A stretch of 64,000 nt of DNA from Mobula hypostoma (lineage: Eukaryota), in the NCBI RefSeq assembly GCF_963921235.1, contig NC_086108.1:40178001-40242000 (forward strand), written 5' to 3'. Positions 59,976 through 64,000 of this stretch are shown in pieces (within the stretch, counting starts at the first letter, position 1; every line of letters begins with the position of its first letter). The notes under the pieces are model-generated. The model made no database searches and was not told where the DNA came from. It saw only the letters and a list, made by a program, of their open reading frames with translations. The translations under genes were made by a program, and so were the position numbers.

Positions 59976-60620
59976 GAGTAGGGAAGTGGTATAGAGGAAC
60001 AAGATTAAGCATGAACTTACAGAATGGTAGGTCCTTCAGTGTCTACTTCTCATGTTTTTAAGTTCCTCTACACCCTTTCTAGTGCTGTCATATCCTTCCT
60101 GCATTGTGGGGAGAGGAACTGTGCACAGAACTCCACCAGTGGCTGAGGCAACGTTTGTGAAATTATGATTCAGAAAGCTCTCCAGCACTTTCTTGGGCAA
60201 CATTCCAGGCAATGGAGGCTGAGGGAGATTTGTCTGCCACTTTGGAGCTGCCTCCTCTTGGGAGATGCTAAATAGAGCTTCTGGGTCAGCTTGTTGCAAG
60301 GGGATGCTACAAGGCCAGTGCTTGCAATCACCGTAGTAACCTGGTGCTCTGACTCAAACATGAATCGAACAGCAATTCTCTCATTGGTGTTTTCTTTTCC
60401 CAGAGAGTAAATGAATTATCTATCTACACTGAGAGCCAATGTGCAGAAACAACTCATTGTGTGAAATTATTTATCTTTTGCATTGCTCTTTTGAATTGTG
60501 ATTACATGCCCAGTGAGCCCATACTGTTTTGTCTTTGTTCTTGATATGGTCCTGGCCAGATTTAATTTACTAATTTAGTTTTGGAACATCCTGGCAATAT
60601 ATATCAGTGCATACTGTATA

Positions 60621-61096
60621 GGGGGCCGTCATCGAGTGGTTGGTGACTTGACCGGCTTCCCCATCGGACTTAGTCTGGTGAGGAGGGTGTGAGGACACCC
60701 AGCAGGACTTAAAAAAAAAACAAGACCTGACAAAGGGCAGATGAGCTCCTTGTGAGCCAACAGCCATCTCCTGTGGAAGAGATTAAAGTCTCACCACATA
60801 TCTACGAATCGTATCACCTAGTGACATGATGAACTTGGGCGCTGCACCGTGTGCCTGGACCTGCCCAAGGCCTCCACCTAAGGAAGGGCCGAGCTTGAAG
60901 AAGCGGCCGCAACTGGAGGCCGACACGGCCCCGGGTTCGAGTTCGGCGGGGGCAGCGGCAGCAGGCGGTGCCAAGGTGGCCAGTGAGAACAAACTGGAGG
61001 AGAGGCTGTACTTGGTGCTGTCGCAAGATCGAAGAAGATGGAGGTGCATAGCCGCCAACCCCAGATTAAGGATGGCACCCACTGACTGACTGACTG
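60621..61096 (+). mobile_element. Bipartite non-autonomous RTE/RTE-X-type retroelement carrying a captured host gene fragment
   Basis: TSD ACTGTATA (60613-60620, 61097-61104), (ACTG)n tail, ORF end SQDRRRWR..AANP typical of RTE-clade C-termini. Confidence 0.75.
60841..61021 (+). pseudogene. ZFTRAF1: Captured, circularly permuted fragment of ZFTRAF1 (CYHR1) N-terminal coding sequence
   Basis: 60883-61021 encodes ..KKRP..(A/G-rich)..[10 protein letters not shown] and 60841-60875 encodes (C)[11 protein letters not shown]; as I recall it, the vertebrate protein reads KKR..[25 protein letters not shown]. Confidence 0.85.
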
Positions 61097-61359
61097 ACTG
61101 TATAAAGCTGATTTCACCTTTTTTTTGTTTAATTCTGTTCCTGCTGCATGCTAATTTTATCTAAAATAAGTGCTGTAGCTCAGTTGAAGAGACAACCAGT
61201 TACTATTATGCTGTTAGGCATCCTACCTTCAATCAGATATGGACTATTCCAGTATTAGGAGAGTTAGGAAGAAAAATTGAAATTGTTTTCATTGGAATGT
61301 CAACAAAGAGAAAGCCTTGGTCCATCTGAGAAATTGATAAAATAACCGTAAATGATTAA

Positions 61360-61694
61360 TATCCCAGTAGTGCTCACACCTGTGGTGATGAAATGCTTTG
61401 AGAAGTTGGTCATGGCTAGAATAAATTCCTGCTTCAGCAAGGAGCTGGACCCACTGCAGCTTGCCTATCTTCAAATTATGTCTATGGCAGATGCAATTTC
61501 AATGGTCCTTCACACGGCCTTAGATCATCTGGACAATACAAACTCCTGTGTCAGGATTCTGTTCATTGACTATAGCTCAGCATTTGACACCATAATTCCC
61601 ACTGTCCTGATCAATAAGCTATACCTATGCCTCTGCAATTGGATCCTCAGCTTCCAAACCAGAAAACCCCAATCTGTGTGGATTGGTGATAATA
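61360..61694 (+). mobile_element. Rex1/Babar RT fragment interrupted by Tc1
   Basis: [36 protein letters not shown]. Confidence 0.85.
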
Positions 61695-64000
61695 CAGTGC
61701 CTATAAAAAGTATTCACCCACCACCTGTTGGTTTTCATGTTTTATTGTTTTACAACATTGAATCACAGTGGATTTAATTTGGCTTTTTTGACACTGATCA
61801 AGAGAAAAAGATTACTTCATGTCAAAGTGAAATCAGATCTCTACAAAGTGATCTAAATAAATTACAAATATAAAACACAAAATAAATAATTACAAAAGGA
61901 TTCATCCCCTTCAAGTCAGTATTTAGTACATGCACCATTGGCAGCAATCACAGCCTTGAGTCTGTGTGGATAGGTCTCTGTCAGCTTTGTACATCTGGAC
62001 ATAAAACATAGAACATGAAAATCTACAGCTCGTTACAGGCCCTTCAGCCCACAATGTTACGCTGACCATGTAACCTACTCTAGAAACGGCTGAGAATTTT
62101 CCTATGGCATAGCTCTCTGTTTTTCTATGTTCCATGTACCTATATAAGAGACTCTTAAAAATCCTTATTGTATCCGCCTCTACCACCGTCACTGGCAGTG
62201 CATTCCATGCACTCACCACTATCTCTGTGAAAAACTTACCCCTGACATCCTCCTTGTACCTACTTCCAAACACCTTAAAACTATGCCGCCTGGTGCTGGC
62301 TATTTCAGCCCTGGGGAGAAAGCCTCTGGCTATCCATATGATCAATGCCTCTCATCAGCTTATACACCTCTATTAGGTCACTTCTCATCCTCTGTTGCTC
62401 CAAGGAGAAAAGGCCAAATTCACTCAACCTATTCTCATAAGCCATGCTCTCCAATCCAGGCTATATCCTTGTAAATCTCCTCTGCACAGTCTCTATAGTA
62501 TCCACATCCTTCCTACAGTGTGGTGACCAGAACTGAACACAATACTCCAAGTGGGGTCTAACTAAGGTCTTGTATAGCTGTGACATTACCTCACGGCTCT
62601 TGAACTCATCCCACGGTTGATGATGGTCAACACACCATACGCCTTCTTAATAACACTGTCAACCTGAGCAGCAGCTTTGAGTGTCCTATGGACATGGACT
62701 CCAAGATCTTGCTGATCCTCCACACTGCCAAGAGTATTACCATTAATATTATATTCTGTCTTCAAATTTGACCTACCAAAATGAACCACTTCACACTTAT
62801 TTGGGTTGAACTTCATCTGCCACTTCTCAACCCAGTTCTGCATCCTATTGATGTCCTGCTATAACCTCTGACAATCTTCCAGACTATCTAGAACACCCCC
62901 AACTTTTGTGTAATCAGAAAACTTATAACCTACCCTTCTACTTACTCATCCAGATCATTTATAAAAAATCACAAAGAGGAGGGGTCCCGGAACAGATCCT
63001 TGTGGAACACCACTAGAGTACAAGCCATCTAAAACCACCCTTTGCCTTCTGTGGGCAAGCCAGTTCTGGATCCACAAAGCAAGGTCTCCTTGGATCCCAT
63101 GCCTCCCTACTTTCTGAATGAGCCTTGCATGGGAAACCTTATCAAATGCCTTACTGAAATCCATATACACTACATCCACTGCTCTAACTTTATCAATGTG
63201 TTTTGCTACATCCGCAAATAAATTAGGCTTGTAAAGGACAACCTGCCCTCGACAAGCCATACTGACTATCCCTAATCAGATTATGTCTCTACAAATGCTC
63301 ATAAATCCTACCTCTCAGGATCTTCTCCAACAATCTGCTGACCACTGAAGTAAGACTCACCGGTCTGTAATTTCCTGGGTTAACTTTACTCCCTTTCTTG
63401 AAGAAGAGAATAGCATTTGCAACCCTTTCACCATCTGGTACTTCTCCCATCTCTATTGATGATGGGAATATCATCACTAGAGGCTCAGTAATCTCCTCCC
63501 TTGCTTCCTACTGTAGCCTGGGATATATCTTGTCCAGTCCCGGTGACTTATCTAACTTAGTACACTGCAATTTTTTTACCAGTTTTCTTTACAAAACTGC
63601 TCAAGCACCGCAAGGTAGCATGGGGATCATGAGTGAACAGCCCTTTTCAAGTCCGGCCACAAATTCTCAGTTGGATTGAAGACCGGACACTGACTTGGCC
63701 GCTCCAGGAAATTAACCTTGTTGTTTTTAAGACACCTCTGTGTAGCCTTGGCTTTATGCTTGGTGTTATTGTCTTGCTGGGAAACAAATTTTCTCCTTAG
63801 TTGCAGTTCTGTTGCAGACTGCATCAAGTTTACCTCCAGGATCCCCCTGTATTTTGCTGCATTCATTTAACCTTCTACCTTCACGAGCCTTCCAGGCTCT
63901 GCTGCAGTGAAGCATTCCCTCAACATGATGCAGTCACCACTATGTTTCACGGTAGGGATAGTGTGTTTCTGATGATGTGTAGTGTTTGGCTTACACCAAA
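61695..64000 (-). mobile_element. Tc1/mariner transposon (TIR at 61695, after TA) with nested CR1; runs off window end
   Basis: ta|cagtgcctataaaaagtattcacc terminus; VSQQDNNTKH, ERPSQCPVFNPTENLW motifs at 63627-63866. Confidence 0.85.
62002..63560 (-). mobile_element. CR1 3' half nested in Tc1
   Basis: PGNYRPVSLTS, YMDFSKAFDKV, WQMKFNPNKCEVVHFG, TRRHSFKV; ttctatg tail at about 62002-62020. Confidence 0.9.

What the first reader, a model, noticed from the sequence alone, without database searches (positions are those of the whole stretch)
60841..61021. Circularly permuted ZFTRAF1/CYHR1 coding fragment captured inside a short retroelement
Seen: the GC-rich insert ends ...AAA CTG GAG GAG AGG CTG TAC TTG GTG CTG T (61021) and begins GC TGC ACC GTG TGC CTG GAC CTG CCC AAG GCC TCC (60841-60875). 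Joining end to start restores [22 protein letters not shown] with no base lost or duplicated, split inside a Cys codon. Known (recalled): ZFTRAF1 reads [25 protein letters not shown] at the start of its RING-like domain; S>L is consistent with CpG decay (TCG>TTG). Inference: an ~180-bp piece of the gene was circularised (microDNA or circular RNA/cDNA, closing near 60875/60876) and reopened on integration between the two ends of an RTE-type element. The TSD suggests the chimera then retrotransposed as a unit.
Basis: partly seen in the sequence, partly recalled or inferred. Interest (0 to 1): 0.85.

Follow-up and report, generated by a model that had tools for sequence, protein, structure and literature searches.

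The report
Rotated host exon inside jumping repeat
A 178-base piece of the host gene ZFTRAF1, with its two parts swapped and no base lost at the cut, is the core of a short jumping element copied to hundreds of places in this genome; it was likely captured once, when the element's copying enzyme hopped onto a looped or cut piece of the gene's RNA.

Summary
The insert matches one host locus, ZFTRAF1 exon 1, in swapped order (40 + 138 bases, family majority 175/178 identical), with no base lost or repeated at the opening. It is not a private insertion: the window holds a 5'-truncated copy of a ~570-bp non-autonomous element with at least 422 copies, target-site duplications and an (ACTG)n tail. 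The element is the two ends of a resident RTE-type LINE whose ~2.9-kb interior is replaced by the insert. All three junctions lack microhomology; no empty element was found. The piece is sense-oriented, wholly exonic, ends 4 bases before the splice donor and is in frame with the LINE ORF at both outer junctions; the family's 5' hairpin carries an ADAR-like A>G excess. I favour one capture by reverse-transcriptase template jumps (0.55) over a DNA microcircle (0.3); a true circle is not proven. The scan noted this family before at other copies in this genome. New variant of a known kind.

The parts
60613..60620 (+). Left target-site duplication (8 bases)
60621..60840 (+). 5' part of the element: RTE-type LINE 5' UTR and first codons; this copy lacks the first ~91 bases of the family (most of the fold-back hairpin head) and has private 6- and 7-base deletions
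60841..60880 (+). ZFTRAF1 exon-1 segment B (host L061 1517-1478, 40 bases, ends 4 bases before the splice donor)
60881..61021 (+). ZFTRAF1 exon-1 segment A (host L061 1655-1518, 138 bases plus a private 3-base insertion)
61022..61080 (+). 3' end of the RTE-type LINE, last codons of its ORF
61081..61100 (+). (ACTG)n tail, containing the LINE's stop codon
61097..61104 (+). Right target-site duplication (overlaps the tail end)

Best explanation
This is one worn copy of a short non-autonomous retroelement family made of the two ends of an RTE-type LINE with a rotated 178-base piece of ZFTRAF1 exon 1 between them, and the piece was likely captured once, in the family's founder, by template jumps of the LINE's reverse transcriptase. 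Inferred steps: cDNA synthesis began on the LINE's 3' end, jumped after ~70 bases to ZFTRAF1 exon-1 RNA (a nicked RNA circle, or the two fragments on either side of one cut), copied A then B, and jumped back to the LINE's 5' region, skipping ~2.9 kb. Shown: the product kept the LINE's 3' end and tail and was amplified with target-site duplications; inferred: by the resident LINE's enzyme in trans. The founder lineage also gained a fold-back 5' hairpin whose A>G changes would be fixed ADAR edits (inferred). No function for the host is shown; the default is selfish amplification.
For: Family: 422 exact junction matches; 37 of 55 sampled copies carry that exact pattern, which scales to ~630 and is a lower bound because the sample is of best hits; 927 and 1813 first-look candidates. 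TSD >=8 bases in 26 of 75 copies versus mean 0.9, max 3, in 50 shuffles. Parent LINE: 27 of 30 fetched loci with the same 3' end continue upstream as a LINE; two near full-length copies share 3.2 kb, with an endonuclease domain (Pfam PF03372, E 5.6e-11) and a YADD-motif stretch; all 8 LINE-type 5' copies run on as LINE past the junction. RNA-side signs: sense orientation, wholly exonic, end 4 bases from the donor; zero microhomology at 3 of 3 junctions, as expected from end-to-end jumps that use non-templated bases (PMC8857657, abstract); double jumps making tripartite LINE chimeras are described (PMC2104539, abstract); no empty precursor and no copy with an intact LINE 5' part joined to the insert (0 matches). 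Head: ~118-base hairpin, -99.9 kcal/mol, 14 of 53 pairs G-U; A>G makes 12 of 18 differences to LINE copy L105 and 12 of 19 to L104, against 0 A>G among 4 differences in 194 body bases.
Against: The size (178) and the CpG-island exon origin fit a microDNA equally well (PMC8040306, passages), and a single cut of a DNA circle also gives an exact rotation. Blunt junctions also arise by end joining; for R2-derived short elements the authors judged non-homologous recombination more likely than a template jump (PMC3414825, passages). Three or four jumps in one reaction are rare. The A>G excess shows RNA passage of the family, not of the capture; against LINE copy L108 (locally rearranged) A>G is only 5 of 17, and some A>G calls are CpG decay in the LINE copies. 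The phase match at both outer junctions has a 1-in-9 chance probability (my arithmetic).
Confidence: 0.55

Rival explanations
1. A ~180-bp DNA microcircle from the ZFTRAF1 CpG island was cut once and patched by end joining into a large deletion in a genomic LINE copy in the germ line; that copy became the master.
For: Exact unit-length rotation; source is a CpG-island first exon (GC 0.63-0.79, CpG o/e ~1), the preferred origin of microDNAs of ~200-400 bp (PMC8040306, passages); the founder carries other DNA-type scars (7- and 10-base deletions against the LINE). If two bases were lost later, the circle's ends share a 3-base repeat (flanks).
Against: Sense orientation and an end 4 bases from the splice donor are coincidences under this model; no microhomology at any junction as the sequence stands; no empty or interior-bearing precursor.
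Confidence: 0.3
2. Sub-case of the best explanation: the template was a true back-spliced circRNA of 180 bases (exon-1 donor joined to an AG inside exon 1); a later 2-base loss at the junction compensated the 10-base deletion upstream, keeping one ORF from the LINE's first ATG to the LINE's stop.
For: The closing junction differs from the back-splice product only by two missing bases; A begins at an AG; a 180-base circle is stop-free in all frames, and both LINE breakpoints and the opening are codon phase 1, so intact LINE + 180-base circle is fully in frame, 10 + 2 = 12, and the present majority ORF is open from LINE start to LINE stop. circRNA-derived pseudogenes exist (PMC4897178, main text).
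Against: No copy keeps the two bases: all 100 listed of 422 have the same gap, only 2 copies have a longer gap and both are local duplications, and run X5 shows the same junction. The AG has no pyrimidine tract before it (flanks). First exons rarely back-splice (recalled).
Confidence: 0.2
3. A 178-bp tandem duplication of exon 1 (DNA) existed and a unit-length window across its junction was captured.
For: It would give the same order without a circle (logic only).
Against: The host locus shows each segment once; capturing exactly one unit length with no overlap would be a large coincidence.
Confidence: 0.05

Closest known systems
Bipartite non-autonomous RTE LINEs (Bov-A, RTESINE1/2, MAR4_MD, WALLSI3; Kojima 2018, PMC5786205, passages read)
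   Same: 5' and 3' parts of an RTE-type LINE, interior lost, microsatellite tail, amplified in trans (inferred)
   Different: The interior is replaced by a rotated host coding-exon fragment; a fold-back, A>G-rich hairpin forms the head; a short ORF runs from LINE start to LINE stop
LINE template-switch chimeras, including tripartite ones (Gogvadze et al. 2007, PMC2104539, abstract; R2 SIDEs, PMC3414825, passages)
   Same: Direct fusion of LINE and cellular sequence, flanked by target-site duplications
   Different: LINE-host-LINE order, host piece rotated, and the chimera became a master with hundreds of copies
circRNA-derived pseudogenes (Dong et al. 2016, PMC4897178, part 1 of 2 read, the main text)
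   Same: Non-colinear exon sequence fixed in the genome in many copies (33 for circRFWD2); the paper also names reverse transcription through open-ended structured RNA as an alternative
   Different: There the junction is an exact exon-exon back-splice and the flanks are LTR-rich; here one exon, junction two bases off the splice product, carrier a non-LTR element
microDNA (review PMC8040306, passages)
   Same: Small size, origin in exon / CpG island
   Different: No circle observed here; germ-line fixation and amplification inside a retroelement are not described in the passages read

Membership tests
Bipartite non-autonomous RTE LINE | 5' and 3' parts match one autonomous LINE present in the genome | tested here: met
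Bipartite non-autonomous RTE LINE | Parent has an apurinic-type endonuclease and reverse transcriptase in one long ORF | tested here: met
   Pfam PF03372/PF14529; YADD stretch in the same copies, ORFs broken
Bipartite non-autonomous RTE LINE | Parent belongs to the RTE clade by RT phylogeny | not tested
   Clade assigned from recalled traits (single ORF, ~3.5 kb, short-repeat tail, C-terminal motif); no tree built
Bipartite non-autonomous RTE LINE | Dispersed copies with variable TSDs, 5' truncation and repeat tail | tested here: met
   26 of 75 TSD >=8 vs 0.9 shuffled; 5' starts from 1 to 249
SINE (small-RNA head, pol III) | tRNA/7SL/5S-derived head | tested here: not met
   Head is a fold-back of the LINE 5' UTR; no Rfam match below E 0.5 in L055, L052, L093
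circRNA-derived pseudogene | Non-colinear order of exon sequence | tested here: met
circRNA-derived pseudogene | Junction is an exact splice donor joined to a splice acceptor | tested here: not met
   Ends 4 bases short of the donor; fits only after a 2-base loss that no copy contradicts or supports
circRNA-derived pseudogene | Parent circRNA detected | not testable with these tools
Reintegrated microDNA | Small, non-repetitive, exon/CpG-island origin | tested here: met
Reintegrated microDNA | Short direct repeat at the closing junction (recalled feature) | tested here: inconclusive
   0 bases as it stands; 3 bases if two bases were lost later
Reintegrated microDNA | Empty target site exists | tested here: not met
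   5 of 5 pattern hits are an unrelated repeat; exact-word search only

The most novel reading that the evidence does not exclude
The family is a germ-line fossil of a small host circle, most boldly an in-frame back-spliced ZFTRAF1 circRNA, copied exactly once round by a LINE reverse transcriptase, spliced in frame into the LINE's own ORF, kept open by compensating frameshifts, hyper-edited by ADAR in its head, and then amplified into hundreds of copies: a circle-to-retroposon route of host-gene capture.
Probability: 0.2. Interest if true: 0.85.

Novelty: new variant of a known kind. Interest (0 to 1): 0.6.

Why it matters
It is a clean, base-exact record of host coding sequence being rotated and then spread by a non-LTR retroelement, a capture route better known from DNA transposons and LTR elements (recalled). 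If a circle was the template, it shows small RNA or DNA circles reaching the germ line and founding a repeat family. Practical point: hundreds of genomic copies carry a junction that looks like a ZFTRAF1 circRNA or microDNA and will inflate ZFTRAF1 exon-1 read counts in these fishes (summed contig depth over segment A was 7 to 20 times the rest of the exon in run X5). The hairpin head would be a rare case of ADAR editing fixed in a retroelement master.

Tried and rejected
Protein search with the window's own 60-residue reading found nothing (0 of 259 candidates). A generic RING search did not help to find the gene. A pattern for a LINE-type continuation after the element's own 5' junction gave 2 hits, both one deleted element copy. 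Older subfamily: 16 copies have the host-like T near the closing junction but share no other diagnostic change, in line with background C>T (1.8% in the body); the T-form in run X5 matches one of them, L139, so it is not evidence of an ancestral state. Empty element: 5 hits, all unrelated. Rfam: nothing significant, no ribozyme match. Expression: no RNA holder listed on record; only contigs could be laid and not over the donor region, so no back-splice test was possible; no joint was listed in 4 runs; runs X19 and X22 gave no cover of segment A. Selection on the chimeric ORF: five master substitutions are too few to test. Earlier-finding look-up by sequence was empty. Literature: searches listed no paper on this family (listings only; Repbase and Dfam could not be searched); the ADAR search listed no paper on edits fixed in retroelement masters among 12 of 121 shown.

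Full report
Observation. Window 60841-61021 is a GC-rich block that reads ...[10 protein letters not shown] at its end and GC TGC ACC GTG... at its start. A pattern asking for the end followed by the start finds one place in the genome, on contig C5 (L061). That place is a CpG-island first exon with an ORF from ATG to ...ASVYQ followed by GT. The ORF's relatives are ZFTRAF1/CYHR1, best among rays and skates, so the host is likely a batoid-like cartilaginous fish (inference). The next exon is ~91 kb downstream and starts at the next residue. The family majority matches host segment A at 136 of 138 and segment B at 39 of 40 bases; A ends at L061 1518 and B begins at 1517, so the rotation loses and repeats nothing. 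The closing junction is at window 60880/60881.

A family, not an insertion. DNA searches return 927 and 1813 first-look candidates, 40 scored each, on many contigs. The closing junction's flanks match exactly at 422 places, control 0; 37 of 55 sampled copies carry that pattern, giving ~630 as a lower estimate. Copies end in (ACTG)n, are variably 5'-truncated, and 26 of 75 have a TSD of 8 or more bases against 0.9 in shuffles. Median non-CpG distance to the majority is 2.6% in 55 copies chosen as best hits; the window copy has 11 of 371 non-CpG and 18 of 76 CpG differences. Contigs of two public runs (organisms coded A and B, close to the host by 0 and 1 differences in ~400 exon bases) show the same junction; those of run X5 match one specific copy, L139.

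The carrier. Of 30 fetched loci (of 131) sharing the 3' end but with another preceding base, 27 continue as a LINE and 3 are element copies. Two copies align over 3.2 kb and hold endonuclease and reverse-transcriptase sequence. Eight LINE-type 5' ends show the element's 5' part is the LINE's 5' UTR and first codons with 7- and 10-base deletions. About 2.9 kb of interior is replaced by the 178 bases (from coordinates). This is the bipartite design described for RTE-derived non-autonomous elements (PMC5786205, passages). The RTE label rests on recalled traits; no tree was built.

Junctions. All three have zero microhomology. The host piece is sense to the LINE, lies wholly in exon 1 and stops 4 bases before the donor. 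Both LINE breakpoints and the opening point are codon phase 1, and the majority has one ORF from the LINE's first in-frame ATG through B (shifted frame), A (native frame) and the LINE's own last codons. If two bases were lost at the closing junction, the circle would be 180 bases, would equal the product of joining the donor to an AG within the exon, would have a 3-base repeat at its ends, and would be in frame throughout with an undeleted LINE start; 10 + 2 would then be compensating frameshifts. Against this, no copy retains those bases (100 listed of 422 uniform; 2 longer gaps, both duplications), no copy has the undeleted LINE start joined to the insert, and the AG lacks a pyrimidine tract. 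No empty element exists at exact-word sensitivity.

The head. Full-length copies begin with a ~118-base fold-back built from an inverted and a direct, deleted copy of the LINE 5' UTR. It folds at -99.9 kcal/mol with 14 G-U among 53 pairs; one arm keeps T opposite positions where the other arm has G and the LINE has A. A>G is 12 of 18 and 12 of 19 differences against two LINE copies, 5 of 17 against a third, rearranged one, and 0 of 4 in 194 body bases. I read this as ADAR editing fixed by reverse transcription (inferred). The window copy lacks most of this head.

Mechanism. Best reading (0.55): one reverse-transcription reaction jumped LINE 3' end -> ZFTRAF1 exon-1 RNA -> LINE 5' region. Non-LTR enzymes jump between separate templates by non-templated addition (PMC8857657, abstract) and double jumps are recorded (PMC2104539, abstract). 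The template may have been a nicked circle (a true back-splice, 0.2, is included in this) or two fragments from one cut; sequence alone cannot tell. Main rival (0.3): a DNA microcircle patched into a deletion, fitting size and CpG-island origin (PMC8040306, passages); recombination was preferred over jumps for R2 short elements (PMC3414825, passages).

Known and new. The carrier is a known kind; rotated exon copies are known as circRNA-derived pseudogenes (PMC4897178, main text), whose exact-splice criterion is not met here. The combination, an exactly rotated host exon piece as the core of an amplified non-LTR family, was in none of the listings; repeat databases were not searchable and no supplements were read. 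The scan's own notes describe the same family at other copies in this genome (2 shown; 8 shown of 14); I saw them after my analysis and they agree. Verdict: real, new variant of a known kind, interest 0.6; this locus itself is an ordinary decayed copy.

Noticed in passing
L055, L052, L011 and other full-length copies, first ~120 bases of the element: Fold-back hairpin head with strand-specific A>G excess against the parent LINE; one position is A in some copies and G in most, as if edited in part of the lineage.
   Followed up: partly
L139 (G000:C80:19049302): Copy with a 13-base deletion in segment B that matches the junction contigs of run X5, likely a shared orthologous insertion.
   Followed up: partly
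L092 (G000:C2:26354700-26361000): LINE copy with a 5' inversion of ~515 bases, the twin-priming pattern (name recalled).
   Followed up: no
window 61360-61700: Fragment that looks like the reverse-transcriptase region of another, older non-LTR element, read by eye.
   Followed up: no
L140-L144 (small contigs C140, C148, C169, C178): Multi-copy unit embedded in a ~61-bp tandem satellite, with a GC-rich ORF-like stretch on the opposite strand; the same 61-bp unit occurs just upstream of the ZFTRAF1 promoter (L061 2726-2788).
   Followed up: no
G000:C12 0.4-30 Mb and C96 5.3-7.4 Mb: Very large clusters of C3HC4 RING genes make up most of the 150 scored matches.
   Followed up: no
L100 and L101 (G000:C12:196.97 and 197.08 Mb): Identical element copy with identical flanks in opposite orientation 100 kb apart: an inverted segmental duplication.
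   Followed up: no
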